Shown here piece by piece: positions 9,230 to 49,200 of a stretch of 64,000 bases of DNA (positions are counted from its first letter, which is position 1; each line of letters starts with the position of its first letter). Below the pieces are notes generated by a model. It was not told the DNA's origin, searched no databases, and worked only from the letters and a program-made list of their open reading frames with translations. Location: the NCBI GenBank assembly GCA_045837725.1, contig JBEWZL010000084.1, positions 62,001 through 126,000 of the forward strand, given 5' to 3'. Origin of the DNA: Vermamoeba vermiformis. Lineage: Eukaryota. Position numbers and translations under genes: made by a program.

Positions 9230-12200
9230 ATGGCTTCTCCGGTGACGGATTTTGAAAGTTCGAGCCAAAGTTGGTCCGAGGTGCTAGCCAATATATTTCG
9301 CGATATTAAAACAAGGTAAAAAAATATTGCATTTTATTATTTTAATTGATTTGTTTTATTAAAAATGACGCGTCTATTGTTGAGGTCACTAACCAATTAT
9401 TATTGAATATTCAGAAAGAAAGAAACGCGGGTTGATGGAGCTGCCAAGTTGCGACAATATGTAAGTATTTTAACATAATTGTTATTAGTACTGAAAATTA
9501 TTTTCTCGATCCCGCCATTGGCTTCACAATTTAATTATAACATTGCCGTATCTAAAATTTCTAATATTTTAAACAGGTCGCCGAACAAACCCACGAGATG
9601 AAGGGAGAGTTTTTTACTCATTTTATGCACGATATAAATGAATACATCAAAGATCTCACAAAAAGCTCAGCAGCGCAAGATGTGCTTGGCGGAATTATGG
9701 CCTTAGGTATTTATTTTCACAAAGTACAATAATTAAACGCCAATTGTCGCTCCGCCACGGAAATTTTGTTTATGGAGCTGATCGAGGTCACGACAGTTTG
9801 ACTATTTTTGGAAGTACCTTGCACGACTTCCTATTATTTTTAAAATAATATTTTATATATATACGTTGACAGACAGATAATTTCCTAACAATTACTTCGC
9901 TAGATAAACTGCTGGATGTGGAGTACGATTTGAACGACGGAATTTTTGTAACTCAATGGGCAGCGTATTTGCGAACAGCGCTACATCAGTCAGAAAATAT
10001 TCAAGTAGTCACCGAAGCATCAAGATGTTTAGGTATGGATTTATTAGCTCTAAAGTTGGAACCGGATCCGATCTGAGACATTAAGACCCGGAAATTTAAT
10101 CCGCAACTCGCTGTCATGACCGCTTAAATATGGCGCAGGTCACTGCCAATCATTTAACACTCAATATCCAGTGTCAAGCGGACTATGAATTGTTTACGGT
10201 TGGTCAGATCTTACCCGATTTTATGTTATAGGTCGACTAGCCCGTATATATCAACACACTATGCCGCGTGAATTTATAGATTTTGAGATCCGCCAAGCAT
10301 TGGAATGGCTATTATCAGGCCATCATTTCAGAGCCACAACAGCTGTCTGTGTACTGGCTGAATTATTGCAAAATGTACCCACTTTAATCAACGTAGAGGT
10401 AAGAGTCGGGCTACATATTAATAGCGCATGGCCATATGATACATCTGAAAGGCCTTAAAAATTACAAAAGATTTTCTGGCCTTATATTGCCGTTCAATAC
10501 TAATGCCGTTTCATTAGCACGTTGAAAGTTTTGTGGATTTAATGTGGCTGCCGTTAAGAGACAATGATATTACACTAAGAGAAGGCACAGTTGAAGTACT
10601 GCGGTGGAGTTTAAAAGTGGTCAAAGATCGGTCACGTGAACTACGATTGAATTTATACAAAAAAGTATACGCACTCGCTGAAAATGGATTTAAAGTATCG
10701 AAATTGCCCGATAGTATTCACGGCTCAATGCTCGTATTCGGTACGTAAATATTTTTTTTAATTTATTTTTATTTATTATTCAAGAAATCTAAACGACGAT
10801 CTCGATGCATTAATATTTATGCGTATAATAATGATTATTATAGGAGAGGTATTGGCAGATAATTGCGAGTACTTGAATGACAAATACGAAGAAGTTAGCA
10901 AAATGATATTAAGCATGCGCGATCACAAAAATCAATTGATTCGTCATACAGTCATTCAATTGATTCCACAGCTGGCTAAATTCAACCCACAGCATTTTGC
11001 AGATAAAAATTTAGCCACGTGCACTGAGCACTTACTCGCTTCGTTGAGCAATAAGAAAGAACGAGGAGCGGTATTATTAGCACTAGGTGAAATGGGCTTG
11101 GTAAGTACTACATTAATGGATAAGTACATTGGGTCTAATATTGTTACGTAGGTTCTGAAAGAACGAATCAATCCAGTGTTGGGCAGCATTATCAATATTA
11201 TCACACAAGCATTCACGGCAAGATTTGGCAAGAATTTGTTATGCCCTGAGTTGTTTAAATGCATTAGTATGTTAGCTATTGCTCTCGGCGGTGATTTGGC
11301 CATTCATATGAAGCCTATTCTACGTAAGTATTAGAGATCTTACAATTGTATAAGAGCACTTCTAACTGCTAATTTAGCGCAAATGTTTGCTACAGAATTC
11401 AGTCAGATTTTGATTGACACGCTCAGTGACATTGCGCACAACATTCCGTCATTGCGTGACACGATCCAAGAGAGATTGTTGAACGTTTTGTCAATGTACT
11501 TGACCACTAAAGACTCTGGCCGCGCATTACATAGACAGAGCATCATCACGCCCAACACATCCAATACTAGTAGCAGCTTGTCCTCTCCGCGCGATTCGTC
11601 AGTATTGAGCCATAGTCCCGCTACTCCAGGCCCGAACAACATGTTGAACTTGTTGCCAGCAGTACGTAGAACTGTTTCTCGTAAATTCTGACGTAACACT
11701 TTGTTATGTAGTCACTGGCAGGCGATCGTACACCAATGATCATCTTGTCGCTGCACACTTTGGCGACATTTGAATTTGATACTAGTGTGACACGCGACCT
11801 TGTCCACAAACTCGTTGTACATTACTTGGACGACGAGAATGCGTGAGTTTCTTTCAATTAATCCATGGTACTTTTACATCTTACTGACGCTTTAATAGTA
11901 CTATCCGTAAGAAAGCAGCAATTGCTTGCACCAAGTTGCTAATTAGCAAGAACGAGCGACCTTCGCTGCGCGGTCCTTCAGCGAGTATCATTGCCGATGT
12001 GTTGATGATGTTGCTGCGCGTAGTGTTGACTGACATGGGTAAGTTTGAATCATTTCTGTGTTTGTGATTGATCGTCTAACACTTGCGCTTAGATCCGTCC
12101 ATTCGTGAAAGCATTCTTGGTTCATTAGACGAGCGATACGACTTGATGCTCTCACAGCCTGAATTTATCAAAACTATATTCTTGTTCTTATACGACGAAG

Positions 12201-15200
12201 TATTTGAGGTAAATATTTCCACAATCCAAGTAAAAGTACGTGGGACTAACGAATTTCCCGTGCAGATCCGCGAACTCGCTGTGTTGCTGCTTGGTCGCTT
12301 AAGTGTGATCAATCCAGCATACATATTCCCGTCCTTGCGATCATACTTGGTCGATGTCGTCAAAGAAATTGAAGCCAGCGAAGACATTCACAAAAAAGAA
12401 AGTAGCGCGAAGCTGTTCGGCAAAGTCATCCGGTCTTTATCCAAATTAGTCAAACCCTACACTGACACGCTCGTGAAACAACTTCTCGGCGTGATTAGGC
12501 AAGAGCAGTCTTCACGCTTATCGGCGTATGGTTTGGCTGCACTCGGAGACCTTGCTGAAGTAGCTGGTGACACGATGTTACAGTACATGGACGAGCTCAT
12601 GCCACTCGTCATTGAGAACTTCCAAGAACAAAGTTCGTCGACCAAACGATACGTGGCACTGAAGACATTGGATTCATTGGTTGAGAACACTGGCTACGTC
12701 ATTGAACCGTTCTTGAAGTATCCTCGATTGTTGGACACGATTTTGAATAAGATCAAACGAGAGGACCAAGCTACAACACGGTCGCAGTTGATTCGATTGT
12801 TGGGAACCATGGGTGCCTTGGATCCGTACAAGTACAAGCAATTGCAACTCGAACAGCTTGAAGATAGTGAAGAGGCAGCCAATTCATCGATCGTTAAGCC
12901 ATCGACGTCAGGATCAAACGGCAATGGCAAAGAGAATGGTGCCGGTCAGCCACAAGGGCAACAGCAACAAGGTCCCGAGCTGAATGCTAGTGGTGATGCT
13001 TCTGACAGTGATTTGATGCGTGGTGTGTCATTGGCTAGCGAAGATTACTACCCTTCAATAGCTTTGACAATTCTGTTGCAATTTTTACGAAAACCTTATG
13101 GCGCCTTGGCCACAGTAAGTTGACTATTATCGGCATGTGCACGCCATACTAACTTGATTTAGTTGCAACCGATGGTGATTCAAGCTGTGATGACCATCTT
13201 CAAGAGTCAAGGACTCAAGTGCGTGCCTTACCTCAAACACTTTATGCCGTTGTTTATGCACGTCATGAAAGTGGTCGGAGAGTCCATGCCTGGCCTCAGA
13301 GAGTTGATGTTCCAACAACTCTGTATTTTAGTCTCGATCATCAAGCACTACACGCGTGATTTCCTTGACGAGTTCTTCGGAGTAAGCATTGATGACACTT
13401 TTATTGCCAAACCGTGTTCTAACGCGTGATTAGATGATTAAAGAGTACTGGGACAACCCGATTCTCAGCACTCAAATCATTCTGTTGATTGAAGAAATAG
13501 CTGATGCTTTGAATGATGAAATTGGCGACGCACTTGTTTGGATGATGCCCAAGATGTTGCGTGTCTTGGCAAACGACTCCAGTCCCAACAATCAAGCCAC
13601 TCTCCGTATCTTCCATGCTTTTGAGTCGTTCGGTACATTGCTAGATGATTACATGCACTTGATTATCCCTGCTATTGTAAGTTCATTTCATCATTTATAT
13701 ACCGATCTAATTCGTAAACAGATGCGCCTTATCGATAATCCTCAAAACCCTGGTGATGTGCGAAAGGCAGCTTTGTTCACCCTCGGCAAACTGTCTCAAA
13801 AGCATTCGTTGACAAAGTACGCTACGGCCATTATGTTACCTTTGGCACGTGTCTTGGATCAAGGCAGCCCGTCCATTCAAAATCAAGTTTTGGAAACACT
13901 GTATGATATAGTAATCAGCTTCGAACAGGAATACAAAGTCTTCATTCCGATGGTAAGTTATCGAGAGGTACCTCAAGTAGTACAAATTCTCACGTTGTCG
14001 TACAGATTCAAGCAGTTGTAAATAAGCGTCAGATCCACAACACGCGTTACAATAACGCCATCTACAAGTTAGTCAGCAACGAGCCCTTGCCACTGCCGGA
14101 GTTATACGCCAATCATAAACGGAAGAAATCGTCGAGCAGATTGGACGAAATGATCGAGAGCGGCAGCATCAACATCAATCCTAAGGCTGGCAATGTAAAT
14201 AGCCAAGTTCTAGCCCAAGCCTGGGACACGACCAAGTGCTTCACCAAGTCAGATTGGTTCGAATGGATTCGAAAACTCTCTATCACTTTGCTGGCCGAGT
14301 CTCCATCAGCTGCTCTTCGCTGTATGGCTCCATTGGCAATGTCACATCAACCTGTGGCTCGTCAGCTCTTCAATGCAGGCTTTGTCTCGTGCTGGGGTCA
14401 GTTGTCCGCAGAATTGCGAGATAACTTGGTCAAGTGCATCGAACAAGCGTTGTCTTCTGCGAACATTCCGCCAGAAATTTTGCAAATTTTGTTGGATTTG
14501 GCTGAGTTCATGGAACATAACGAAAAAGCCTTGCCTATTGACATCAAGATCCTCGCTTCATTGGCCGTCAAATGTCAAGCATATGCCAAGGCCTTGCACT
14601 ACAAGGAATCGGAGTTCAGGCAGAATCCACAAAGCACCATCGAACAGCTGATCTACATCAACAACGAATTACATCAGTTAGAGGCCGCACAAGGTCTATT
14701 GAAGTACGCCCGTGAACAGTTGCAAGTCCCGATCAAAACCACGTGGTACGAGAAGGTGCAACGATGGACAGCTGCCCTCGAACAGTACGACAAGCAACAG
14801 GTGGACTCTCCCGATGACTTGAACATTATGCTTGGTCGAATGCGGTGCATGGCTTCTTTGAGTGATTGGGAGGGCGTGTCTAACCTTGTTGACACAGCTT
14901 TGAAGCGCACAGATCTTACACCTGTTCAGCGCACAGAAGTTGCCACAATTTCACTCTCCTCGGCCTTGAACTTGATGCGATGGGAGAAAATGGATGAGTG
15001 CATAACATACTTGGACGAGAACTTGTTGGATGCGGCGTTCTATCGAGCAATTATTGCCGTACACCATGGCCAATACAACGAATCTCAGGGTCTGATTGAC
15101 AAAGCGCGTGAGCTTGCGGCTACAGAGCTCACAGCTTTGCTCGGTGAAAGTTACAACCGTGCCTACGACGTTGTAGTGAGAATTCAGCAGCTCACCGAGC

Positions 15201-18200
15201 TTGAAGAGGTCGTGACCTACAAGAAACTTTCAAATGACTTAGACAAGCGCGAGCTTCTCAGAAAGCTGTGGCGAAAGAGATTGGAAGGTGTTGAACGAAA
15301 CGTCGAAGTCTGGCAAGCTATTCTTGCTGTACGCAGCTTGGTCGTGCCTCCGACATCTGATCCTGAGACTTGGATCAAGTTCGCTAACTTGGTGCGAAAG
15401 AGCGCGAGACCTAGAAAGGCAAGAAAGATTTTGACTCAGCTTTTGGTTGGCACTGGCAAGGACTTGAAGTCAACTGACCCCATTCCTGATACCTCACCAA
15501 TGTAAGTATCTACAACCTTATTTTCTATTGAGGACAAGAAACTAACGAGCTATTACTTAGGGTGAAATACTCGTACTTGAAGGTCCTGTACGCTAATCCT
15601 GATGAAACCATCAAGAAGTCTGCTTACGAAGAAATGGAGCGATGGGCAGCGCGTTTTGAAGGCTTCTTCAAACAATATCAAGAAGTGAAAGCGCGTCAGA
15701 TCAACGATAACTTCTTGCAGTTCAAGACCCAGTCGATGCCTGTCATTCCTCGTGGTGAATTAGAAAGTTCCGTTGATGGGTTTGGTGATGACCCCGACCT
15801 TGATAGCAGCGGTGAATTCGAAAGCAACAGCAGAGAGCCGGCTTCATCAAGGGCTCCTTTGTCGCGCCAAGCATCGTTCTCAACTGCTGCCTACGCGAGT
15901 ATGGACGGAGGATTTGAGATGGAAGACGGACCTGTGAGGCCCGAGACTCCTCGCAAAGACAATGAGCAAACAGATGTCACTGATATTCTCATGTATCAAG
16001 CACGCTCATTGAGCAAACTCGCACAGTGGCAGCTTGCGGCCAACGAGAACAATCTTGACGAGGTATGTACTGGAGATCTACCAACAAGAAAGTACTAATG
16101 TGATCAAATAGGCGTTGCTGAATAGCGTTCTCGTGCGTTGCAAGGGTGCAATTGATCGAGACTCAGAGTGGTACAAAGGCTGGCACATGTGGGCCTTTGT
16201 GCATTACCGCGCTGTCAGTTACTTGGAAAAGCAGAACAAGAACCATCCCAAGCTAGACCAGCACTTGTTACCTGCTGTGACTGGCTTCATTAGATCAGTG
16301 GCACTCGCTCCTTACGACAACTTACAAGACACATTGCGGTTGCTCACATTATGGTTCAAGTACGGTGCTCGAAAGGACATAGAGAAAGCAGTCAATGACG
16401 GCTTTGACACGTTGAATGTTGACACGTGGCTCGGAGTTATTCCGCAGTTGATGGCTCGTATTCACATTCCCGTGCGCAGCGTTAGACACGGAATTCATAA
16501 ACTGCTCACAGCTCTCGGCAAGAAACATCCTCAAGCCCTCGTGTTCCCCTTGATTGTTGCTGCTAAGGTAAGGTCCCATCTCCAAAAATACACCTTATCT
16601 AATGTTTCTCCTAGTCTCCGTATCCTAATAGAGTGGCCGCAGCCCAAAGTATCATTGCCACATTGCGTCCTCACAGTCCTCGATTGATCGATCAAACTCT
16701 ATTGGTTGCCAATGAGTTGATTCGTGTAGCCATTTTATGGAAAGAAAAGTGGGCCAAGGGCATTGAAGAGGCTTACAGATATTACTTTGGCAACAAGAAC
16801 CCGGACAGCATGATGCAAGTCTTGCAGCCTCTGCACGCCATGCTCGAACAACCTCCCGAGACTCAACACGAAAAAGCCTTGGTCAAGACATTCGGCAAAG
16901 ACTTGGAGCGTGCCTGGAACAATTGCAAAGAGTTCATGCGCACCGGCAAAGTTGCGTGCATTAACACTGCGTGGGACTTGTACGGACACGTGCTTCGAAC
17001 CATCAAGAAGCAGCTCTCAACAGACTTTGACAAGTTGCACTTGCAAACTGTGTCGCCAAAACTACTTGAAGTGCATGACTTGGACTTGGCCGTGCCTGGA
17101 ACGTACAAGGTCAACAAGCCTATTATTCGCATCAAGTCATTCAATCCGATCTTCAAAGTCATTCCTTCAAAACAACAGCCGAGGAAACTTGTTATTGACG
17201 GCAGCAACGGCCAAATTTATCCGTACTTGCTGAAAGGTAGGTGGACTTTTGTGTTAACATTTGGAGCCTAACCCTTTGATATTTAGCCCACGAGGACTTG
17301 CGTCAAGACGAACGTGTGATGCAATTGTTCGGTCTCGTCAACACATTCTTGGCCCTGGATGATTTGACAGCCAAAAATCACTTAGACATTCGACAGTACT
17401 CAGTTATTCCGCTGTCTCACGACACAGGTTTGATTGAATGGGTGCCGCACAGCGACACCTTGCATGAGCTCTTGAAGGACTACAGAAAGACGCACAACTT
17501 GCCCATTGAAGCTGAGCACACGTACATGCAACGCTTCTGCACGACACCCGAGTACTACAAGTTGACTGTCTTCCAGAAACTTGAAGTCTTGCAGTACGCA
17601 TTGGAACGCACTCCGGGCAATGATCTCGAGCGTATTGTGTGGTTAGGCAGCCATAACTCTGAGGTACGACACTTGATACGTCCATTTATGTAAACTGCAA
17701 TACTCAAAAGATTTGTAGGAATGGTTGGACAAGCGCACGACGTACACACGATCATTGGCAGTCATGTCCATGGTCGGCTACATTCTCGGTCTCGGCGACA
17801 GACATCCGAACAACTTGATGATCAACAGAAACACGGGCAAAGTTGTGCACATTGACTTTGGCGATTGTTTTGAAGTCGCTATGCATCGCGACAAATTCGC
17901 CGAGAAAGTTCCGTTCAGACTCACGCGAATGTTAGTGAATGCTATGGAGGTCAGTGGAATCGAAGGAAATTTCAGAACCACGTGCGAGGCTGTGATGAAA
18001 GTCATGCGCGAGAACAAAGAGAGCATGATGGCCGTGTTGGAAGCATTCGTATATGACCCTCTGATTAACTGGCGTTTGATCACTAACCCCAGCTCTGGTC
18101 CATCAGGTACACGTGATATTTTAAATTATACGCAAATTAGCTCTAACAGACCTTGTAGAAATGGACGATAAAGATGACATGTCACCAATGTCCGATGAAG

Positions 18201-18533
18201 ATGATTCAGATATCTCGCCTGTAGCTCGACCAATCAACAGCTTGTCGCAGTCTTATGATCACGTGCAGCACTCTGAGACACCTGACATGCGCGATCAGCT
18301 CAATCAACGTGCACTGAACGTAATTGAACGAGTGTCGAATAAGCTTTCTGGACGTGAGTACTATTAATAATAGCCATAATAACAACCTGCATGGTGGTAA
18401 TGTTCTTCTGTTAGGTGACTTCCCGCGCAAAGGCACCTTGGATGTAGCTGAACAAGTGGATCTGCTCATCAAGCAAGCCACATCAACCGAGAATTTGTGT
18501 CAAGCATATCTCGGCTGGTGTCCTTACTGGTAG
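9230..18533 (+). CDS. TOR: Target of rapamycin kinase (HEAT-FAT-FRB-kinase-FATC)
   Basis: [34 protein letters not shown] domain, [31 protein letters not shown], and FATC end [13 protein letters not shown]. Start codon is tentative. Confidence 0.98.
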
Positions 18534-28982: not shown

Positions 28983-31623
28983 CTACCAACTGAAATTAGG
29001 CAATTCTTTCTCGAGTACTTCCAACGCCTCTTTGACTCGTTCAATGATCAGCGATTCTTGTTTGATGATGTATTCGAGTTCGATCAAACCCAGTTCCAAG
29101 ATCATGCCAGTCAGTTTGCCAGCGAGCATTGGTTCTTTGCTGACACTTTTCAAGTACTTCTCGGCAGTGTAGTATATCACTGTGCCACATTTTTCCAATC
29201 GTTCACCATCGCTCAGCTTTTCCTCGGAGTTTGGCTCGTCTTCAACGACTTCATTTTTCTCACATTTGACTAGTTTGACAACCGTTCCATTGCTGTAGCC
29301 AGCAAACAGCGCACCACCGCTACGAGCCCATTCAATTGTGGTACACTTGGCTGTAGAATCAATGGGCAGTGACGAATGAGCGAACTGATACTTGCCACCA
29401 ACAGGGCACTAAAAAAAAGTTATGATTAATTACACTAAGATCAATATGTCAAAAATTTGTTGCGTACCAAAATGATGATATCAGTCTCGGTGGCAATAGC
29501 AATTAGAGGTTGTTTTGGATGCACGGACAGAGCAATGACAGGTGCACCGCAATCAAATTTTTCCGTGTGTTCGATTGACACGCTGCTTGAAAGTGTCACA
29601 AGACCGTCGCTGTCACCAAGCACAATCAGATCTGTTTCTCGGAAATAAGCACTTGCAGTAATAGTACCTGAAGGAATACATTAGATCACGTAAATTTAAG
29701 GTCCATAACTTACGCGATGTCTTCTGAACGTGTGCAATATCTACTACGGCTTCAAAATTTTCAAAGTTCCAAGTGAAAATGCCGTGCGGAACAACGCCAA
29801 CAGCGCACAGTTTATCGGCCTTAATGAATATTCTCATCACAGGCCCCTTGACAGTGTCTTCATCATCGGCAGCTTTGAGACTGACCGTGTATTTGTCTAT
29901 ACCGAGCGTGTTCAACAGTTTCATACTCGGCACAGTTGTGCCAACCAATACCATGCGTTGATTGTCCGTTAGCGCTACGCAAGTCAATGTGGCTGATACA
30001 GGCTCGCCATAATTGGAGAACTCCTCTATTGTACAATATTAGATTAATCCGGTCATGAACGAACAGGTGTCTTACCGTCGTCCACGTTGTAAGTAGCCAA
30101 TTGACCAAATTCATCACAAATCAAAACATAATCGTTGCTATTTGTTACCATCATGTGCATAACTTTAGCTTTGCAAATCGCCAAATCTTCTCTACCTGCG
30201 AACTTGTTAATAAACAATTGCAAGTATCGGAATATCGGATGTTATACCTTGGATCCAGATAGTTTTACCGACGGACGCGACGAAGATTGACTTGTCCGAG
30301 AAGGAGACTAAATTACTGATGGGTTTTTTATGCTCGCATTGGTAATGAGCAGCGTATTTGACGTATGGTTCTGAATTGTCTACTTCGCGATTGACGAATA
30401 TGTTATTGACGTACTGCAAATTGGGCATATCTCTTTGGAGTTTATCAATGACACCCGAAGTATTCTGATTGGCTGTTAGCAACTATATTATATACACATT
30501 GGTGTCACTTACTTTGGTAGATATAACTAAGTATCTCAAATTTGAAAGGTGTCGAAAGGATTTCAAGGCCTCGTCAGAGACTTCAAATTCGAGATTGAGA
30601 AAAGTAAGGTGCGGCAATCTCGTCACGGAGATTACGGCAGCATCAGTGAGCTTTTTTGCGTCAGGGTCACGTGGCGGCTTAAGGGCAAAGCGTGTCAGGC
30701 TAGTGCATTGCGATACCAATGATTCGACACTTTCATCGGAGAACCGTGCTTCAATTTGTTGCAGTCCTGGTGGTAGAACTGACGGAGTTGTGGCTGCAAA
30801 GTAGCCTTGAGGAATGATCAATCTGGTCATCATCTTCAATCGAGACAGCGCTGAAAGTGACTCCGAGCAAGTCGTAGCTACCAATTTCAGTTCTTCAAGT
30901 TTGGTCAGAGTTGAGCAAACGGCGCGGACAAAATTGTCGTCGAGTGGTGCGTTGTAGCATTCCAAAGTTAGCGCCGAAAGGTTCGTCAGTTTGGTCACGT
31001 GGTACAAATCAGCCGCCTCAATGTTGTTATTCTCAAGATATTCTATCGTTAGTTCAATGAGTTGAGGCAAGTGTTTGGCAATGGCTGGAAGTGCTTGACG
31101 AGGAGTGATCAGTGAGCGCGAGACACGAATGCTTTTCAACGATGTCAAACACGACACTGCACGCACGAATGCTGATGACGACAGTGATGGTGAGCTGTGA
31201 ATGTCGAGTGATGCCAAGTGAGTGATTCTGAACAGTGGTGACAAGTCCCAAATGAATGCTTCTGCTCCGAGTTTCACATGTTTGAAATGCACTGGTGACA
31301 GCTTTGAAACGATCTTTGCAAACACTTCTCCGTTTATTCTTGAGTCATTGATGGTCATTTTCTTCAACGATGAGAGCAGTTCGTTATTCCATTGCGTGCA
31401 CACTTGTTGTGAACTGAAAAAAATAAGAATAAATATTCATTTAATTTTATTTACACTTCTAATAGCATGAATATGCATAATATATCGTTTAAAAATATTT
31501 TTGTAATATTTCAAGAATATTTGAAATTAATTATCACCTTGCCAAGACCCGAAGTGGAAGCAGGTCAAAGATCAGCCGTTGAACGTCTTTTGGTAACGAC
31601 AATATATGTGTATCGAGCTCCAT
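28983..31623 (-). CDS. F-box + LRR + RACK1-like WD40 propeller + MLLE/PABC domain protein
   Basis: F-box ILSLPKDVQRLIFDLL; LRR exon 30.5-31.4 kb; WD40 blades with KLLNTLGIDKYTV and CTTIEWARSGGALFAGYSNG; C-terminal LAGKLTGMILELG...RVKEALEVL (MLLE). Confidence 0.8.
30745..31615 (-). repeat. Inverted duplication, copy A (F-box exon, intron, LRR exon); partner at 44385-45265
   Basis: Near-identical translation (CTQWNNELLSS...KHLPQLIEL) and a similar intron sequence. Confidence 0.9.
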
Positions 31624-31781: not shown

Positions 31782-34700
31782 TCAAACAATCTCTTCGGCC
31801 TCTTCTTCAAACGGGTTCTTCACCGGCAGAGGTAGTGGCATATCATTTAACGCTCTGAATTTGCCAATGTTGTTGAGCTGTTCATTCTCTACTCGGAAAA
31901 TGTTCCACAAGCATCGTCGGTAGATCTCGATGGCGGCCAATAGCGTTGAGAACAGATCAGGGTGGAGCAAAGAATTGATTGCTTCCGGCGAAATTGTCAA
32001 AGTCCACAGCACTCGCATGATGAAGTTTGAGATCAACGCAAAGTAGTACTGAAATAAATGTTAGTTGCGGGTGGAAGAACAAATAAGACGATGTTTCTTA
32101 CATAGTACGTCGGATAGAGCAACTTAGAACGAAGTCCCCAATGTTTCACGCCTTTAGTTTCTCCGAGAGACCAATCCATTTTGACGTCCCAGTAGTAGCT
32201 GTAGAATGTGCCCACAATCACAAAGATAATCCACAACGCTGTAAACGCTGGTTGGTCCTTGAATTTTCCTCGTAGGAAGGAGAACGCGAGCACGAAGAAA
32301 GCGACGGAGTACTTTCCAGCATTGGCGAGCTGTCTTCGTTGTCCCGTATCGATGTATCTTCTAATGGACTGCATGAATCGCCACTGCCCGCAATGGTTAA
32401 TACTCGCACAAGGAACACGGAGACTTACGAATGGTGGCAAGAACGCAAGCATTGGCAGGATGTATCTATAATTAGAGTCGCATGAAGGTGCTATTATCCA
32501 AAAAGTTAGACGAACTCCTCAATTGAAGAATAACTTGTGTGACTTACGAAAGTTCTCGGACCAAGCATCGTTAATGAGGTAACAAATGAAGTACTCGATA
32601 TCGTACAATACGATCACTATTGAAACAAGTTGATCGGCAATGAAAAAGTGCGGGAAGTGAATGAACGTGAACGGACTGCCAAAAATATATGCAACGATTT
32701 TGACGAGCCACATTTTGCCTGTCAACAATAGCGTTAGGACGTGCTAAATAAGTATTTGATAAACAAAAGCCTACTTTTCACTTGGTACCAAATTGACGCT
32801 ATTAAAAATAGGCCGAAGACGAACAATGGATGCGCGATCATCGGAATCTTCTTGATCCATTGCAAGTACGACACTTGAATGTCAATGACTGACAGCAAGA
32901 ATAGCATTAGACTTCCAATAACTAGAACGGTCATTACAGATGCCGCCTACAATAGAATATTATTAGTACCATTCTTTTAAGAAGCCGTAATACGATTTCT
33001 GACCTCGAAAATGTTCGTGTATCGGTGATGTCGTCTTGGATCGAACTCGAAAATAAACACGTAGTTGACCCGATATTTCGCCCATATATACATATCTACA
33101 CCCCAGCCCCACACTAATAAACATATCATAGCCATCATTCTGTAGCACATTAATATCGGCCGTATTCGTATTCCCAAGTCAGGTCCAATGTTGAATGCTA
33201 ACAAACGTCAGATCCGGTTAAAAATAATGCTGATACCAAGCTTACCGGTATATATTATGGCTAGTGCGAACGTTAACGAAATTCCCAATAGCAAGCCGAA
33301 CCTGAATGCTGACGGCTCTTTTGCGTCGTCTTTGTCAGCCACGCGCAACTTTTTCATCGCGGCTGTTCGATGACCGCTCGTGAAGCACATTGCAAACACG
33401 TGCTTAAATGGGCGTTAGCTAAGGTAATAATACAATCAATATGGCTTACCTCGGTCTCGCGCATGAGCGTTGTCAAGCCAGTATGTTTGTAAAACAAACA
33501 GCGTGACAAATTGTTGGCGATGTAAATCTCTTTGTCACCCAGTTCAATGTTCTTGTCGTGTTTGGTCAAAATCTTTTCAATGCCTTCAGAGTTCAATGTA
33601 GCGTAGTTCATCAGCAAACTGATTCCTCGATAAAACTCCGCAAATGCACGCTGTAACTTCAAAATGGCACTGTGTCGATCAATTTTTCGCATTTCTTCGA
33701 GTTCTTTGGCCACGACGAACGAACTGCGCGTCATGTCTGTCGACTCCAAGTCTTCTTTAGTCAAGTTTCGTAGCTTTAAAATGGTGTAACTTCTCGACAT
33801 TGACTCATGTTGGCGTTGCAGACTATCTGCCGGTGCCTTTTTTAGATCGTCTTCTGAGGATTCTGCTTTTCGCGGGCTTTTCGCGCTTTGTTTCATTGAC
33901 GACATTTTAGACGATAAATTGTCAGTTAAGTGGCTTGTGCCGCGGCTCATTGTACTCTTTTCGCTCTGGACTTTGCTGCTTGTCGTATTAACCTTCGTTG
34001 GCTTGCTTTGCTTAGCTCGTTGAATGGCTGAGGTAATTCGACGAGGTGACGCTGGACCAATGGGAGCTACACCAGCGGCATCTGATTCATCTAAAGATAC
34101 GTCCGAATCATCTTCATCGTCGCTGCTAATATCATCGTCGTGAATATAGCCACTGTCTTCGATTCCTATAGTATTTTATGCCTCGTTAAAATGATGGTTA
34201 AAATGAGGTTTGTGGATCATTACCATAACCGTCACGAGGTGAAAGATCCAGTGACATTCTTCGTTGAGAAGTAGTCGTTCTCACACGTTTAATGACGTCG
34301 TTAATACTGGTCTTCTTTGATAAGGGAAACAGAGGATTTTCTTGCAGGAGTGGGATCTTGGCCTCATCTTTGCGAGTGTGCGTTGAAAGACCAATATCAA
34401 GGCCTAAATGCAATCTGTCCAGTTCTCGCTCTACTCTTGTACTCAGACCTCGTGTAAACGGATCGTATTGGTCGATCAGTTGCTGAAACAAATTTATGTT
34501 AAGGAATTTTCAGTAGAATGCCTAGTTTACGTACCAACTGAATCGCTTGAAGCGTTAAAATATGGAATTGCTCGGTGAAGTGATCGATTTGCTTATTGTA
34601 CCAATTTTCAACTCGTAAAACGTTTTCATCCAGCATGGTCCAAAATTTTCTTTCGGCTTCCATCTTCTCGAGCTGAATTTCTTTGCCCGCATCATCGCCA

Positions 34701-35768: not shown

Positions 35769-38700
35769 ATGCGCGGTAGACTCAGCTCTGTCGCGTCAAG
35801 TTTGGCGTTGTTTGCCTTGCTGTTAACAATCGTCAGCGCTGCTGATCGTGTGGACTTTGGTCCTTATAATTTAGACTCAAATACGGCTAAATTTGTGTCT
35901 ATCAAGCAAACGGTATGTACTACAAATTGTCTCGATTAGTTTTATAATTAATTTCAAAACTCCAAACGAAATCCGATACTTTTGACACTCGTGACCATGG
36001 CAATGCCATCAATAATTCCTCGTGTTGGGTACTAACGCTTACTTATTTATATAGACGAATATTATAATTCAAACAAGTGACAGCTTGAACAAACCCCAAG
36101 TCGTGATTACGGTTTACGGTCATAACTTGCCCGACGGATTGTCTGATCAGTTCATCAACTTAAACAATGGAGAGTTTAACATTGATACGGTAAGCAAAGT
36201 TTTAACCCGGAAATCAACCTCATTTGATTTGATCTGTGTACATCCAAAGTTTCGCTGTATTACTGACTAAATATCTTTTTAGGTTGATCCTACTGCTATT
36301 AAAGGTGTAAGCAAGTCATCTGTGTTGGCAACGAGCCTCTCTTTGTTTGCTTTGGTCGGATTTGTAGCTGCTTTTAACATCCGAAACAAAGCAGTTTTCA
36401 TGGCCGCATTAGGTAAAGGAATTATAGACTTATTAGTGCATTATATGAAACGATTTATTCGTATTAATCTTCCGTTTAGCCCTGTTAGGTTGCTTTGCTT
36501 TGATCCAAGCGCAAGACGAACTTCGCATTGAAATCACTCTGACAGTGCCCAGCAACACTCCTATGGAGTCTTTCAGCGCCCAATTAGCTCAAGGAGGCGT
36601 CACTGGAAGCGCAGCAAAGTTCAGTTACTTAACTCTAGACATGTGCTCGACGGAGCTCTCGGGCAGTTCTCAAGCTCAGCTCACTTCACTCGGCATTCGT
36701 CGTGGATTGAATGTGTGCGCTAAGGGTGCTGTTCAAGTGCCTAATTTGAAGGTCTTGACCACCGCAGCTGACATTGCCTTGACATCCCAAAATGACGATG
36801 TCACCACAAACTTCGTGGTAAGTACTAAGTTATTAAACCGTCTTATTAACGAGTAGCCTAATAATACCGTTTACCTCCTCAGGACGCATTTGCTGGCACT
36901 TACGCAGTTAATTCTCAAACTCGCAAGATTGACGGAGACTGCGTGAAAGATAACACTAGTGTGTCGACTTCGTTCGAGTCAGGTGTTTGTCGTCACGGCA
37001 AATACAGCACTTTCAAGGCTTCAGGTAAAAATTGTTGACAAAAGTAGCTCAGCGACTCCGAATCTTATTTGACGAGTGACACCAGTCCGTGTGTCTTGGC
37101 CTTTTATGAAAATTGCGAAAGATTCTCGCGATCTTAAATTTCAGACTCGCAGTATTACAGTTACTAACTAATATTTTTACAGCCAACGCGGTTACAGTTG
37201 ATTTTGCTACCGGCTGCCCTGAGGATCCCGAAGCAGTTGATTTTGTGCCAACTTCCCCTGCTGTTTCAACCCTCGTCCCAGTGGCTCCTACTACTTGGGT
37301 CGTCACATCTGGCTCCCGCGCAGCAGCTATTGCGTACAACAACGATACTGATGGAAGTCTCATTGTCAACGCAACACTCTCAGCCAACTACCCGACCGAA
37401 TTCTGGCTCGCGCAGACCAACGCTTTGTTGTTCGTTCGTAACGACACTGGCTTCAAGTACCGATTCTCATTCGAGATGAGTTCTAGCGCGCCTGAGCTCG
37501 TCATTGCTGAGGTTCGCTTTGCAATGTTCGTGCAAAAGTTAACCAACATTCCTACGTGGGCTGGTTCGAACAATACCTTCGTCTACGATTACCAACCTGC
37601 CACTTCACCTGCCTTCTCTGATTGGAACAACACTTGGGTCAAGTTTGAAGGAGAAGTCTCTTCGCCGTACTTGGGACCCTCTATCCAAATCGGAGCTTAC
37701 ATCCGAACTGCAGCGTCTTTGGCTAAAACAGTCAACGTGCTTTTCCGCAATCTTCACATTGACACGATTGTGCCCGAGGGTCAGCCAAGTCAACTCGTGC
37801 AAGCAGGTTACAGCGAGCTCGTGAACGTTCGCAGACCTCCTTCGGACTTCGACCCCAACCCACGTGACGACTGTCCTCACCTTCAAGCAGGCCTGTTGTT
37901 GTGGCACAAGCCCGAGACTTGGGGCGGAGCAGTTCCTTCACCGAGCTCTGTCATCACGCTGCCTGAAAACTCGAAGGTTCTCATCACTTCATGCTCACTT
38001 GAAGACGCCGTCTATGAGAAGATTGTTGTTCCTTCTAGCAGTGAACTGATCTTCAGCGACGCACCAATCACTTTGAACGTAAAAGCCATCAAAGTTGATG
38101 GTCACTTGCGCCTTGGCTCGCCTACTTGCCGCTTGTTCTCTGACATTACGATCACTTTGTACGGCCAAAAGACCACTGACAACACTATTGGAGACTTAAT
38201 GGGAAGCAAGGGCATCGGCGTTGATGGGACCATTGATCTGCACGGCAAACAGTACCATCAAACTTGGACTCGTTTGGCGACTACTGCCTACCCTGGCGAC
38301 AATCACATTTGGATCCAAGAAGACGTCAACTGGCACGTGGGTCAACAAGTCGTTGTGGTTACTACCAGACTAAGAGACGAGGAGACTAAAGAGAACGAAG
38401 TTATGACCATCAAGGCGATCAATGGTCATCAGATCCAGTTCGAAGAAGTGTTCAAGTTCGTTCACTACGGAGGTCCTGAATATCAAGCTGAAGTTGGATT
38501 GCTCTCTCGTCGCATTGTCGTGCAAGGCGCTGATGACTCTGAAGCTGAGTCATTCGGTGGTCACATCATGGTGCGAGGTGAAGGTCGTTTCAGCGGTGTT
38601 CGTGGCTACAGATTGGGTCAAACAAATCAACTTGCACGCTACCCCTTCCACTTCCACTTGCTCCAATCATCGCCTCAGTCATTCATTCGTGACTGCACCA

Positions 38701-40488
38701 TTCACCGTTCGTTCTATCGCTGCGTGTCAATCCACGACACTCACGAAATTAACGTGCTGCGTAACGTCGCATTTGACGTGACTGGCCACTGCTACTACTT
38801 GGAGGAAGGAGTCGAAGAGAACAACACGATTGCCTTCAACTTGGCTGCTTATGTGCACGTGATTTATCAAGCTGCTATCACTGGTCAACCGATGGTCAAC
38901 GTTTACAACGAGACTGACTTCCTTCGATTGCCCGCTGACGTCGCTGCCTCTGGTTTTTACATCACCAATGGTTACAATCATATCTACGGTAATGCCGCTA
39001 GTGGAGGCTGGGCAGGCTTTGCTTTCCCTAACTTGCCCAAGCCCATCGGCTTCAATCAACAAGCGCCAGTTGTTCCGCAACACAGACCTGTCATCGAGTT
39101 TGACAGCAACACTGCGCACTCCTCGGGCTTTTCGAATACTGGCGAAGGCATTCCCTGCATCTACATGGGAGGCAAACTTTGGAATGACTACGACAACTAC
39201 GGTGGCTTGCTACGCTACGACACTGGCCGTCAAGAGCGCAATCCCCCAGCGTTCAACTCTTTCACCAACACGAAGACTTTCTCGTGTCAATTGGGTGTGA
39301 TGTTCTGGGGTAGCAAACTTGAAGTGACCAAGTACGAGTCGTATGATTGCGTCAAAGCTGGTCGTCTCTTCAACAGTTACTTGGACTCAGCTCTAGTCTC
39401 TGCTATCACTCCGAACACGAGATGGTTGCCCGCTCGCAGATCACAAGGCTTCGAGTTCTACGACACTGGTATCAAGGCCATTATTACAAACGTTGAGTAT
39501 AGGTAATAAGTTACTAGTTGTTTATTTCGAAAGCACAAGCGCTAAATCTCGCCTCAGAAATTTCTTGCCTTCAGCAACTGCAGGTCTGGATCCGAACTCC
39601 GACAACATTATTTTCACTGCTTTGACTCACAGTGACGTCTACAAGCCTCAAGGCATTTCAGCCGTGAAGAACATCAAGTACACGAATGTTCCTGTGAGCC
39701 AACGAGTTCGCAACTACTACAGAGATACAGGCTCATCGCGCTACTTCAACATTATTGACTGGGACGGCACGACTGCAGGCAGACCTAACCAAGCCATCAT
39801 TGGTTCTTATGTTGGCTGGTGGAACTTCGACAACACCTGCGTCTACAATGACAACTGGAAAGCTCATGTGTGCGATCGTGGCACTCGTGAAATTGCCAGC
39901 TTAGCAGTCAATGTGCCTGGCTTGATTGACTTTGACGGTCAATACAGCATGTACGGCACTGAAGCCACGGCAAATATGCCGGCTGGTACATCAACGCTGT
40001 TCTACTTGGCACAAGGAGTGTCACGCGTCAACAAGACGTGTCTCATCACAAGAAATCCTCAAATTACTGGTGTGACTCAAGTCGGCTGGCACATCTCGCT
40101 TGACCCTGGTGCTCCTCTTAAGATGCGCGTTGGCACGTTCCAAATCCCGTTCGGCCAATGGGTATTATTCGCTTCAAACTACCCTGCTGGCACAACTTTC
40201 AACGTCACTGTCAGCCGTCGCAACCTCAGCAACATGCAGATACTGAGCAAGGCCGCCAGTCTCGATGAAGTGATGGCAGGCAGTGGTGACAAGTACTACT
40301 TCAGTGCTCCTCACTTGTACATCAAGATGATTGATCGTGGTCGCACTGGTGCAACTACCGAGTTCTGGGAATACAACAACGTGCGATTGTACAACGTGTA
40401 CACGGACAACTTTTACAACATCGATGCTACGTGCACTGACAGCGGTACTGGGTTCTGCACCGTTGTAAGTGCTGTGCCTAGTGTTTAG
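35769..40488 (+). CDS. Secreted G8-domain / TMEM2-CEMIP-like beta-helix protein (ComF-like)
   Basis: Signal peptide; G8 domain (WHKPETWGG...IKVDGHLRLGS); TWTRLATTA, AEVGLLSRRI, FGGHIM, LARYPFHFH, GHCYYLEEGVE and AASGFYITN motifs. Confidence 0.88.
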
Positions 40489-44369: not shown

Positions 44370-46122
44370 ATGGAACACATCGCCGATACACATATATTAT
44401 CGTTACCAAAGGACGTTCAACGGCTGATCTTTGACCTGCTTCCTCTTCGAGTCTTAATAAGGTCAGTTTAATTTCAAATATTATTTAAATATTACAATAA
44501 TATTTTTAAACGATATATTATACATATACTATGCATATTTATGCTATTAGAAGCGCAAATAAAATTAAATGAAAATTTATTCTTATTTTTTTCAGTTCAC
44601 AACAAGTGTGCACGCAATGGAATAACGAACTGCTCTCATCGTTGAAGAAAATGACCATCAATGACTCAAGAATAAACGGAGAAGTGTTTGCAAAAATCGT
44701 TTCAAAACTGTCACCAGTGCATTTCAAACATGTGAAACTCGGAGCAGAAGCATTCATTTGGGACTTGTCACCACTGTTCAGAATCACTCACTTGGCATCA
44801 CTCGACATTCACAGCTCACCATCACTGTCGTCATCAGCATTCGTGCGTGCAGTGTCGTGTTTGACATCGTTGAAAAGCATTCGTGTCTCGCGCTCCCTGA
44901 TCACTCCTCGTCAAGCACTTCCTGCCATTGTCAAACACTTGCCTCAACTCATTGAACTCAAACTGTCGTACTTTGAAGATGACATTGACGCCGCTGACTT
45001 GCATCGCGTAACGAACTTGACAAATTTGGCAACTCTGTCGTTGGAATGCAAGCAACTTTCACTCGACGACAACTTTATGCTCGCAGTATGTTCGTCACTG
45101 ACAAAGCTCGAATCACTTCAACTCAACTACACGACTTGCTCGGAGTCACTTTCAGCGCTGTCTCGATTGAAGATGATGACCAGATTGATCATTCCTCAAG
45201 GCTACTTTGCAGCCACAACTCCGTCAGTTCTACCACCAGGACTGCAACACATTGAAGCAAAATTCTCCGATAAGAGTATACATGCGTTGGTATCGCATTG
45301 CAATCATTTAACGTACCTCGACATCGGTCCTTGTCCTCCACCAGCAAAACTCACGGATGCAGCCTTCATCGCTGTGATGAGCTTGCAAAATCTACAGTCA
45401 CTGAACCTTCAATTTGACGTTTCTGATGAATTATTGCGATCAAAACTGCAATGCCTTTCGACGGTCAAATATTTAGGATTGACTTATAATAACGCAGTAA
45501 GTAGCCGATCGGATCGGATAAAATCTGATCAGCTAAAAAGTCCGCATTTATATCAAGATTTAACTTCTTTTTATGCTAGGTATGTGTAGAAGTCTTCGAT
45601 TTGAGGAAAAACATGCCCAATATAATACATATTGGCTACACAACGGATGCAGAACCGAATCATCAAGGCGACATCCAAACCATTGGCGAGACATTGTTTC
45701 CGATCATTAAAGAACGAATAGAGAATATTGGATATGGCACTATCGATCAACTAGCGAATAAAGTTACAGGAATGCTATTGGATCTGGATCTGGCCGAGCT
45801 AAATGAATTAGCTACCAACCATGACGCGTTGTTTGGTCGAGTTAATGAAGCGTTGGGAGTACTTGGATATGATACCCAACAGAATATTATTAACGTGAAT
45901 AACGAGGATGAAGAAATTCAAAATTTAAAAGTGATTATTTTGAACGCTACAAATCAGTACTTAGAGGAAGAAAATGAAGACGTGGAATTCGCAGAAAAAA
46001 TCACCGATATTATATTGCAAACGACGCACGTAGTAAGTCTGAGATCCACAGTTAAAGTTGACTCAAGTCTGCGAGCACTCATCAAAGACACCTTGCAGAC
46101 TAAAATTCGTCAAAAACAGTAA
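44370..46122 (+). CDS. F-box + LRR + tandem MLLE/PABC domain protein
   Basis: F-box nearly identical to the 31623 gene; LRR exon; IGETLFPII...ANKVTGMLLDLDLAEL...RVNEALGVL, plus a degenerate second copy (FAEKITDIILQ). Confidence 0.85.
44385..45265 (+). repeat. Inverted duplication, copy B; partner at 30745-31615
   Basis: Same evidence as copy A; blocks of near-identity separated by a diverged block. Confidence 0.9.
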
Positions 46123-46242: not shown

Positions 46243-49200
46243 TTACATAAAATCTTCACCGCTTTCATCATCGCTGTCAATTTGCTGCGGAATGTTAATA
46301 AATCGCAATTTAAAGCCTGATTTGGTCGGACTAGTCGAGGAAGACCCTTTGCTCGGTGAAGTCAGAATGCTGTTCGTGTTGTTATTGATAGCACTCGATG
46401 AGGGACTGCTGAACATGTTCTTGAATGTGTTGCTCATAATAGCCTTGGTCTCGAGTTCCATGGCTCGTTCAGCAATTTGTTTTTCAACTTCACTTTCACC
46501 AACAACGTCCTGAAAAGCATAAAAATTAATAAATTGTTCTTTCCTTATTTGGAAATATTTTACGCACGGTATTCAAATGGCTATACACAACACCGTTCTC
46601 ACGCAACACTTCTTCGATGTCTTTATGAGACCGAATCGATGAGCTAGGTGCTGTGCTTGGTGCTAAAAATAGCAGGTCAGATACACTTGCCATAAAAGCA
46701 AATTAAGTCACGAGCTTTGTACCTTGCAACTGTTTTCGTGTCTCTTCAATGCCTTCATCATCGTCAATGTCGTGCGATATGATAACGGATCCGAGTTCAT
46801 TCTCGTCATCTCCTTCAGCTTTGACTTGATTGTTGTGCTCGTCGTTAGTGTTGTTAGTCTTGGCTATTTTGTAGAACATTTCTTTGCGCTCCGTTCTCTC
46901 GATGATTTCTACCAGGAAAATATTAGCGACAAATTAAATTTTTAAAAAATTTTTCGGACGTACCATTGGTTAGCACGGATTCAGTGTGCAATTTGAACAA
47001 ATTTGCAAGGCCGAAAATTTCACCCTCTTGGCCTTTAACGCCAGCCACGCCCTTGAAATATCTTCGTTCGGTGTTGCCGTGAAGCCCGATGTTAGCCAAT
47101 TGTTGTTTGTAGATCTGTCTGTTGTACGTCATTTCTTCGATTGTGCCTGCAGTCACTAAGCGGTATATTTGCGTGAATTTCTTTTGACCAATCCTGTACG
47201 CTCGGTCTTGGGCCTGCAAATCCAACGTGACATTCCCTAGCACGTGACGAATTAGTATACCGTTCAGTGAAACGCGATGAGTGGTATACTTACAATTAGG
47301 ATCGAATATGACAACGATATTTGCAGCTGAATGAAAATGTTAAAAGGAGTGCACCCAAAGTGACAGGTGTCAACTTACATGTCAAATTGAGGCCTAGACC
47401 GCAAGCCTTTGTGCTGACCAGAAACACGAACTGTGTCCGACTCTTGCTGAAGATGTCTACCAATCTTTTTTAACCAAATTAGTATCTGCTGTAATGTCAT
47501 AAATGTTCATCGGACTAACCTTTGTCGTGCTGCCATTGGTGTATTTCCGTCAATGCGACTGAACTCGAAATTTTCACGACGAAGAAAACGCGCTAGAATA
47601 CTAAAGTTCATTTAGTTAGTAGTGCTTTCAGTGAACGAAAGATTCATGAACGAAGTACGTACTCCATCATCTTGGTCGAATAAGAAAACAACAGAACTTT
47701 GTGACCTTCTTCGCGCCAGATTGGCAGCAGTGATTTCAGCACGCGTAACTTGCCGCAAATTTCCGTGTCATTGCCATTCCTAAAAAGGAAATTAGTCTAC
47801 CATTTCTAACCTCTTGTATAACCGTACTTGATAGCTTCTTTGATCGTATTTACATCTTCGCCAAAAGCGAGTTTTGCGAATTTCAAATCGCCTTTTGTTT
47901 TGTTCTCGTCTTCGCTCTTTTTCTTGGGCACTAACAGTGACAAATGATTCGACATTTTCTGCAGTCTAGTAATAGCAGGGAGTACTATAACATATATTAG
48001 TATTATAAAGATGTATGATATGATGGGATAAGTACCTATTGATTTCCAGTTCTTGCCGTCGGTCAGATCCGATTTGTGACAACATTGTACGGCCAATTGT
48101 CCCGAGCCACATTCACACGGAGAACATTTGCGGCGGAGTAATTGATAGTCCGGACTTTCTATCACTCGTTTGTAGCATCGCAGCTGCACATCCGTCGGGG
48201 CACAAAACACGACGTTGTCTTCTTTTCCAGGTAACTAGAGCAATTCTATGTCAGGACAAAAAACTTCCTAATTAGGAAATAACATACCTCGTGTGCAATA
48301 ATAGCCTTCGTACGGCGCAAAATAATTCGTTTCAACCTGTGAAAGAATTGTAAAAACTTGTTTGACTTGCCATATTTGGTAATACGTACTTCTCAGCCAA
48401 GCTCTTCGAAGCGATTCTTCCACGTGCAATTTGACCGCCAGTGGCATCATGCACGTGACCATTCTTAATCGGGCCGATGTATTGTTTTCTGAAGTGGTCT
48501 AAACTGCCCAAGAAACCGGTACAATGAAAATCGATCAAAGTCCACAACTCTTCGAATGAATTCTGCATCACTGTGCCTGTCAGTCCAAATCTTCTACGAG
48601 TCCTTATTCTTTTGCATAGCTGCGTCAATTTTGACTGTTTGTTCTTGATTTTGTGAACCTAAGAAATTTCTGGTCAGATCCGCCTTAACAATTATCAACT
48701 GCGACCAAATTACCTCATCAAATATCATACAACACCAATCAATAACATTAATGTCGTTGAAATTTGTCCTGAAAGTCTCGTAGCTAGTCAACATGACATC
48801 TAACTTGTCTGATTTCACTAACGATAAGGCCACTAGAAACCAACAATAAGAACCACAATATATATGTTATATTATAATTAATGTGAACCGTACTTGATCT
48901 GTCTTTGCCGTGAAAAATCATCACTCGCAAGCGACACCACTTTGTGAACTCTTTGTTCCAGTTCTCGAGCACTGACGCGGGACAAATGATCAGCACTGGC
49001 TGCTTCGTGACACCTTTGTAATCTTTGTCGCTAATCGAGGTCTTGTTTGTGTTCGTCGCTTGAGTCACTGTTGGCTCGTTCTCTGAATCGTCAATAACAA
49101 TCGGATTATTTTCGGTGACTTCTTCGTTATTGAACAAATCACTCGATGGCTCGCGACTCGAATTCTCCTTATTTGAAGATTTGTTCTTTGGATTGAAAAA

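What the first reader, a model, noticed from the sequence alone, without database searches (positions are those of the whole stretch)
16720..17015. TOR FRB domain predicts natural rapamycin resistance
Seen: [10 protein letters not shown] (Tyr codon at 16774-16776) and AWDLYGHVL, versus human GLEEASRLYF and AWDLYYHVF. These correspond to S2035Y, Y2105G and F2108L. Established: bulky residues at S2035 block FKBP12-rapamycin binding, F2108L is a known resistance mutation, and Y2105 contacts the drug. The kinase motifs are intact. Inference: an insensitive TOR, perhaps a diverged paralog or an adaptation to rapamycin-producing soil bacteria.
Basis: partly seen in the sequence, partly recalled or inferred. 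Interest (0 to 1): 0.72.

Follow-up and report, generated by a model that had tools for sequence, protein, structure and literature searches.

The report
Divergent TOR paralog with remodelled FRB
This likely amoebal genome has four TOR kinase genes; the one here is intact and belongs to an old side-branch whose rapamycin-binding surface is altered, so it is predicted to ignore rapamycin and likely docks different partners, while two standard copies keep the drug site.

Summary
The three substitutions are real: S2035Y, Y2105G and F2108L in human numbering. They lie in an intact, spliced 2,525-aa TOR gene (9230-18533, 24 exons). This FRB probably does not bind FKBP12-rapamycin (about 0.9, inferred), but organism-level resistance is not shown. 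The genome has four TOR genes; two keep S2035, Y2105 and F2108. The window gene sits in a strongly supported paralog clade (100/100 with FRB columns removed) shared with Arcella intermedia and unnamed protists. In that clade Y2105 is always small (14 of 14), while S2035 is kept in 9 of 14. So the surface changed first and the classic resistance residue came later, with at least three changes on the tree. The clade also has a basic FRB face, a hinge Glu and a rebuilt LST8-binding loop. The genome carries two LST8 genes only 49% identical. Best reading: a sub-functionalised TOR with a changed substrate or partner gate, insensitive to rapamycin as a by-product. Adaptation to rapamycin producers is unsupported. 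TOR expansions are known from trypanosomatids; I found no description of this clade.

The parts
9230..18533 (+). TOR kinase gene of a divergent paralog clade; 24 exons, 2,525 aa
   Evidence: Stop-free model with 23 GT-AG introns; 3 of the 23 introns seen spliced in reads or contigs; tree placement
16714..17013 (+). FRB domain (human 2015-2114), predicted four-helix bundle
   Evidence: Pfam PF08771 E 5e-35; AlphaFold2 mean pLDDT 87.8, four helices; rmsd 0.7-1.1 A to isolated FRB crystal structures
16774..16776 (+). Tyr at S2035; late change shared (as Phe) with the sister sequence P0199
16984..16986 (+). Gly at Y2105; clade-wide change (G6, A5, S3 in 14 rows)
16993..16995 (+). Leu at F2108; only in the window gene and P0199 among 14 clade rows
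16741..16758 (+). Basic FRB helix-1 face: K2024 and K2029 (clade K11 and K13 of 14; canonical H16 and E19 of 20)
17436..17441 (+). Hinge G2238E next to the retained W2239 (Glu in 12 of 14 clade rows, Gly in 20 of 20 canonical rows)
17496..17618 (+). LST8-binding element (human 2258-2296), remodelled, with a 2-residue insertion
   Evidence: alignments; limits from PMC10793652
17797..17862 (+). Catalytic loop (D, H, N kept; S2342N clade-wide) and DFG motif
18415..18533 (+). FATC exon ending in Trp, then stop

Best explanation
This is an intact TOR gene of an old, separate paralog clade, one of four TORs in the genome, whose FRB docking patch and LST8-binding loop have been rebuilt, so it likely selects other substrates or partners and is predicted to be rapamycin-insensitive as a by-product. 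Shown: gene integrity, splicing at three introns, clade membership, the residue pattern, two paralogs with an unchanged site, and two LST8 genes. Inferred order: duplication before the split from Arcella; loss of the Y2105 ring, charge reversal on helix 1 and rebuilding of the LBE in the new copy; then bulky aromatics at 2035 tolerated several times, and F2108L in the window lineage. [quoted passage not shown] Growth control would stay with the canonical copies on C145 and C78.
For: Four TOR loci with FRB matches over the Pfam cut-off. C78 and C145 keep S2035, F2039, W2101, Y2105, F2108. The window gene lies in a 14-row clade at 100/100 among 33 rows with FRB columns dropped, and an 18-row clade at SH 100 among 69 rows; both include two Arcella intermedia proteins. 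Clade versus canonical, 14 and 20 chosen rows: 2105 small in 14 of 14 versus aromatic in 20 of 20; 2035 S9 Y4 F1 versus S20; 2029 K13 R1 versus E19; W2101 kept in all; 2342 N14 versus S20. Three changes of the aromatic-2035 state within the clade. FRB-to-kinase distance ratio is 1.38 in the clade and 1.61 in canonical rows, so the FRB is not decaying, and it models as a normal bundle. FRB is the second substrate-docking site for S6K and PRAS40 and is touched by Rictor (PMC7464330). Y2038, F2039, Y2105 and F2108 form its lipophilic patch (PMC8439657). L2031, F2039 and Y2105 bind phosphatidic acid (PMC2997006). Two intact LST8 genes at 49% identity.
Against: No function, substrate or partner was tested. 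Only one RAPTOR type and one RICTOR were found, so no dedicated scaffold is in evidence. The LST8 duplication could not be dated: no named amoebozoan LST8 was among the 49 rows, and the two copies are sisters at SH 94, which fits a later duplication as well. Human S2035 mutants phosphorylate S6K and 4E-BP1 normally (PMC4226703), so that change alone need not alter substrates. N-terminal identity to Dictyostelium TOR (39-46%) is like that of C78 (39-52%) and Chlamydomonas (33-46%), so it does not mark a special complex. The link between aromatic 2035 and non-aromatic 2105 (11 of 14 versus 47 of 284) fails the tree-aware test: 3 pairs, p 1. The clade rows were chosen by me from search hits, and no outgroup fixes the root.
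Confidence: 0.62

Rival explanations
1. The paralog enters ordinary TORC1 with RAPTOR and acts as a dominant rapamycin-resistant TOR, so the whole cell grows on rapamycin, whatever first drove the changes.
For: FRB mutants give dominant resistance in yeast (PMC6023025). S2035 mutants keep S6K and 4E-BP1 activity (PMC4226703). The gene is spliced in three runs. One RAPTOR type serves four TORs.
Against: Kinase-domain identity to C145 and C78 is only 67% and the LBE is rebuilt. Expression looks low in X21: 77 reads laid from about 13.0 million records, 35 of them under 90% alike, some from paralogs. No growth data.
Confidence: 0.2
2. The paralog is a dedicated TORC2 kinase. Its FRB is covered by RICTOR, so the TORC1 docking patch drifted or adapted to RICTOR.
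For: Rictor's C-terminus covers the FRB, and duplicated TORs often specialise by complex (PMC7464330, PMC3236823, PMC9282017). One RICTOR is present.
Against: Fungal TORC2-type TORs keep S2035, Y2105 and F2108 (PMC2997006). The FRB shows no extra relaxation. This reading overlaps with the best explanation and differs only in naming the partner.
Confidence: 0.2
3. The substitutions were selected by exposure to rapamycin from bacteria.
For: Two sites match laboratory or clinical resistance positions. Aromatic 2035 arose more than once.
Against: The canonical TORs of the same genome are unchanged. Nine of 14 clade rows keep Ser. Changes extend to the hinge, catalytic loop and LBE, far from the drug site. 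No ecological evidence was found.
Confidence: 0.06
4. Aromatic swap: the Tyr ring moved from helix 4 (2105) to helix 1 (2035), restoring a similar hydrophobic patch, so canonical docking and perhaps weak drug binding remain.
For: 11 of 14 rows with aromatic 2035 have non-aromatic 2105, against 47 of 284 rows with Ser or Ala. The backbone is unchanged in the model.
Against: The rows are related and the tree-aware test has no power. Most clade members lack both rings.
Confidence: 0.1

Closest known systems
Trypanosomatid TOR expansion (TOR1-TOR4; TORC4)
   Same: Four TOR genes in one protist genome, with extra copies that diverge at the FRB; TOR3 and TOR4 have their own roles (PMC3160303, PMC10933368 passages).
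   Different: TOR4 lacks the FRB, whereas this paralog keeps a full FRB fold. The lineage differs, orthology was not tested (no named trypanosomatid row in the trees), and no complex is shown here.
Rapamycin-resistant mTOR and yeast TOR alleles (S2035F/I/T, F2108L, TOR1-1 S1972R)
   Same: Same positions; Leu at 2108 is identical, and Tyr at 2035 is close to Phe.
   Different: Those are single changes in an otherwise normal TOR. Here they sit in an FRB about 50% identical to human, on top of an older loss of Y2105.
Entamoeba histolytica EhFRAP and EhTOR2
   Same: Amoebozoan TOR pair with Y2105 replaced (Ser, Phe) and F2108 replaced by Tyr (PMC8391992).
   Different: Both keep the Ser and were predicted to bind rapamycin. 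Their relation to this clade was not tested.
Yeast Tor1/Tor2 complex specialisation
   Same: Duplicated TORs that divide work between complexes (PMC3236823, PMC6023025).
   Different: The yeast copies keep all FRB residues and share one LST8; this genome has two LST8 genes.

Membership tests
TOR kinase (PIKK) | HEAT-FAT-FRB-kinase-FATC order in one reading frame | tested here: met
   2,525-aa model collinear with full-length TORs; FRB Pfam match
TOR kinase (PIKK) | ATP lysine, catalytic D-H-N, DFG, FATC end | tested here: met
TOR kinase (PIKK) | FRB four-helix bundle | tested here: met
   Predicted model, pLDDT 87.8; rmsd 0.7-1.1 A to isolated FRB crystal structures
TOR kinase (PIKK) | Protein kinase activity | not testable with these tools
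   Needs an assay
Rapamycin-sensitive (canonical) TOR | S2035, W2101, Y2105, F2108 conserved | tested here: not met
   Only W2101 is kept
Rapamycin-sensitive (canonical) TOR | Groups with canonical TORs in a tree | tested here: not met
   Separate clade, 100/100 without FRB columns
Rapamycin-resistant TOR | Fails to form the FKBP12-rapamycin-FRB complex | not testable with these tools
   Inferred from S2035F and F2108L; rapamycin is not among the ligands offered
Naturally rapamycin-resistant organism | No sensitive TOR, or no FKBP able to present the drug | tested here: not met
   C78 and C145 keep the site; FKBP-domain genes are present, 11 matches. Dominant resistance remains open
Dedicated non-canonical TOR complex (TORC4-like) | Own set of subunits | tested here: inconclusive
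   Two LST8 genes but one RAPTOR type and one RICTOR; pairing untested
Pseudogene or assembly artefact | Stops, frameshifts, or absence from reads | tested here: not met

The most novel reading that the evidence does not exclude
An old amoebozoan TOR subfamily forms a third kind of TOR complex with its own LST8 paralog, a rebuilt substrate gate (basic FRB without the Y2105 ring, extended LBE loop) and built-in rapamycin insensitivity, running a separate output beside rapamycin-sensitive TORC1.
Probability: 0.22. Interest if true: 0.72.

Novelty: new variant of a known kind. Interest (0 to 1): 0.46.

Why it matters
If right, free-living amoebae hold a natural experiment on the TOR substrate gate. 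One genome carries sensitive and predicted-insensitive TORs, so rapamycin versus an ATP-site inhibitor would separate their outputs without genetics. The clade gives a graded series (Y2105 small, then aromatic 2035, then L2108) for testing what the FRB patch does besides binding a drug. A co-specialised LST8 would be an exception to the report that LST8 was not duplicated in 64 surveyed species (PMC3236823). It also warns that rapamycin experiments in such amoebae may miss part of TOR signalling. If the paralog only drifted, it is one more divergent protist TOR: 15 of 150 representatives have another residue at 2035.

Tried and rejected
Assembly error or pseudogene: rejected. Single resistant TOR: rejected, there are four genes. 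Recent duplicate of C145: rejected by both trees. FRB decay: not seen. The SIN1/CRIM search found nothing, but its controls were also blank: uninformative. A site-mixture tree of 69 rows did not finish; FastTree and LG+G4 were used instead. The tree-aware covariation test had no power. The LST8 homolog search returned no named amoebozoan sequence. In one search only the first five segments are valid; the later cuts were mis-set and not used. Runs X9 and X10 do not cover the Tyr codon, and 112 difference rows were hidden. No complex prediction was run, because a TOR-LST8 pair would pass by likeness to solved structures and could not choose between the two LST8s. Two look-ups in earlier findings returned nothing. 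The paper search on Vermamoeba (0 papers) used a genus name I guessed from recall; the organism was not identified.

Full report
OBSERVATION. It aligns to human mTOR chains without gaps across the FRB, with query residue 8 at human 1989. The codons are TAC 16774-16776 (2035, Tyr), GGA 16984-16986 (2105, Gly) and CTT 16993-16995 (2108, Leu). Among 150 database representatives, 134 have Ser at 2035, 15 another residue and 1 is not covered; 94 have Tyr at 2105 and 125 have Phe at 2108. The changes are unusual but not unique.

THE GENE. Joining exons at 23 GT-AG introns gives a stop-free 2,525-aa protein from 9230 to 18533 with HEAT, FAT, FRB, kinase and FATC regions and the catalytic residues. 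Three introns were within the laid stretch, and all were seen spliced: 16568-16614 in X10 and X21, 17237-17286 and 17664-17718 in X9, X10 and X21. X21 is raw RNA, with one read per junction; X9 and X10 are only guessed to be RNA. Run X1, which may be the source, holds all 312 sampled words. An X5 contig from another study spans the FRB with 2 differences in 620 bases; one is synonymous at 16908 and the other was not displayed. The FRB models as a four-helix bundle (pLDDT 87.8, 57 sequences) with rmsd 0.7-1.1 A to isolated FRB crystal structures.

PARALOGS. The genome (43.3 Mb, 309 contigs) has four TOR loci: C84 (window), C78, C145 and C152. A fifth weak match on C163 looks like SMG1, by my reading of its motifs. 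C145 and C78 keep S2035, F2039, W2101, Y2105 and F2108; C152 is more altered than the window gene. FKBP domains gave 11 matches, including an FKBP52-like gene and a small FKBP12-like gene with an N-terminal zinc finger (labels are my reading). RAPTOR occurs as two copies 96% identical in DNA, probably haplotypes; RICTOR occurs once. Two intact LST8 genes are 49% identical; one also has a 97.6% identical second copy.

THE CLADE. The best homologs are an unnamed JGI protein (61%), an Arcella intermedia protein (57%) and an unnamed Logan protein (58%). A search seeded with clade member P0043 added full-length members, a second Arcella protein, and one protein filed under a locust assembly, which I take (from recall) as a likely amoebal contaminant. 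I chose 69 of 305 rows for FastTree and 33 of these for IQ-TREE LG+G4 with FRB columns dropped. The window gene falls in a clade of 18 rows (SH 100) and 14 rows (100/100). Its sister is P0199 (79% identical; Phe 2035, Ser 2105, Leu 2108). C145 and C152 are sisters (99/97) outside the clade, and C78 is outside too. The trees are unrooted. That the organism is a tubulinean amoeba is inferred from Arcella being the nearest named relative.

WHAT CHANGED. In 14 clade rows against 20 canonical rows: 2105 is G6 A5 S3 against Y19 F1; 2035 is S9 Y4 F1 against S20; 2108 is F7 Y5 L2 against F20; 2029 is K13 R1 against E19; 2024 is K11 against H16; hinge 2238 is E12 against G20; 2342 is N14 against S20; W2101 is invariant. 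The LST8-binding element (2258-2296; PMC10793652) is rebuilt with 2 to 5 extra residues. The aromatic state at 2035 needs at least 3 changes within the clade and 6 on the whole tree. Across 302 of 305 rows, 11 of 14 with aromatic 2035 have a non-aromatic 2105, against 47 of 284 with Ser or Ala, but the tree-aware test has 3 pairs and p 1. The FRB-to-kinase distance ratio is 1.38 in the clade and 1.61 in canonical rows: no sign of decay.

MECHANISM. The FRB is the drug site and also the second substrate-docking site (S6K and PRAS40 helices), and Rictor covers it in TORC2 (PMC7464330). Its patch is Y2038, F2039, Y2105 and F2108 (PMC8439657), and it binds phosphatidic acid through L2031, F2039 and Y2105 (PMC2997006). 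FRB and LBE bound the catalytic cleft (PMC10793652). I infer that an old duplicate rebuilt both walls of this entrance while keeping catalysis, and that loss of rapamycin binding followed as a by-product (0.62). Loss of binding itself is likely (about 0.9): S2035F appeared in resistant cells, D, T, Q and I abolish binding (PMC4226703), and F2108L disrupts the interaction (PMC5118441). That first paper notes the Phe case was not tested for complex formation, and that S2035 mutants phosphorylate S6K normally, which counts against a substrate effect of this site alone. Rivals are dominant resistance through TORC1 (0.2; FRB alleles are dominant in yeast, PMC6023025), a dedicated TORC2 kinase (0.2, overlapping with the best reading), an aromatic swap (0.1) and selection by rapamycin (0.06).

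COMPARISON AND NOVELTY. TOR duplications are known in yeasts, chytrids, oomycetes and trypanosomatids, and LST8 was reported unduplicated in 64 species (PMC3236823). Trypanosomatids have four TORs, one without FRB. Entamoeba has two that keep the Ser. A 2025 survey of over 800 genomes, in the passages read, covered Archaeplastida, SAR, Discoba and Metamonada and could not count copies (PMC12467227). Searches listed no paper describing this clade; the library holds only open papers and I saw only the top 10-20 listings of each. For all 15 papers opened I read term-matched passages only, no full text and no supplements; the TOR tree in the supplement of PMC3236823 could bear on novelty. PMC5745459, PMC12184488 and PMC9282017 gave background only.

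VERDICT. The protein is a TOR and not a canonical rapamycin-sensitive one. It is a new variant of a known kind: a divergent TOR subfamily with a remodelled FRB and LBE. Interest 0.46; the most novel reading (own complex with its own LST8) has probability 0.22 and interest 0.72.

Noticed in passing
L039:1900-4075 (G000 C80, minus strand) and L041:1440-3320 (G000 C260, minus strand): Two intact LST8 genes, 333 and 401 aa, 49% identical; the C260 copy has a Pro/Gln-rich tail and a 95% identical database relative (P0315).
   Followed up: partly
L027 (G000 C152:518500-528300): A fourth TOR, sister to the canonical C145 gene, with a long branch and a more altered FRB (His 2035, Lys 2105, Tyr 2108; 32% identical to the window FRB) but intact kinase motifs.
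   Followed up: partly
L025:2192-9145 (G000 C78): TOR in one uninterrupted 2,318-codon frame with a shortened N-terminus, against 23 introns in the window gene; possibly a retrocopy or intron loss.
   Followed up: no
L022:1061-2068 (G000 C12): Small FKBP12-like gene fused to an N-terminal MYND-type zinc finger, by my reading of the exons.
   Followed up: no
L042 and L043; L039 and L040: RAPTOR (96%) and LST8 (97.6%) loci each occur twice on different contigs, suggesting uncollapsed haplotypes in the assembly.
   Followed up: partly
window 15700-15990: Acidic, Ser-rich insertion of about 100 residues in the FAT domain of the window TOR.
   Followed up: no
window 9316-10843: The first six introns are 99-199 bases long, while the other 17 are 45-61 bases.
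   Followed up: no
window 32036-34175 (-), 37110-39503 (+), 45580-46119 (+), 48787-49434 (-), 30486-31436 (-): Neighbours by Pfam: SPX-EXS protein, G8 plus CEMIP beta-helix protein, MLLE domain, SNF2 domain and leucine-rich repeats; none is linked to TOR.
   Followed up: no
P0044: A clade member is filed under Schistocerca gregaria; it groups with unnamed protist TORs at 100/99 and is probably from a contaminating amoeba.
   Followed up: no
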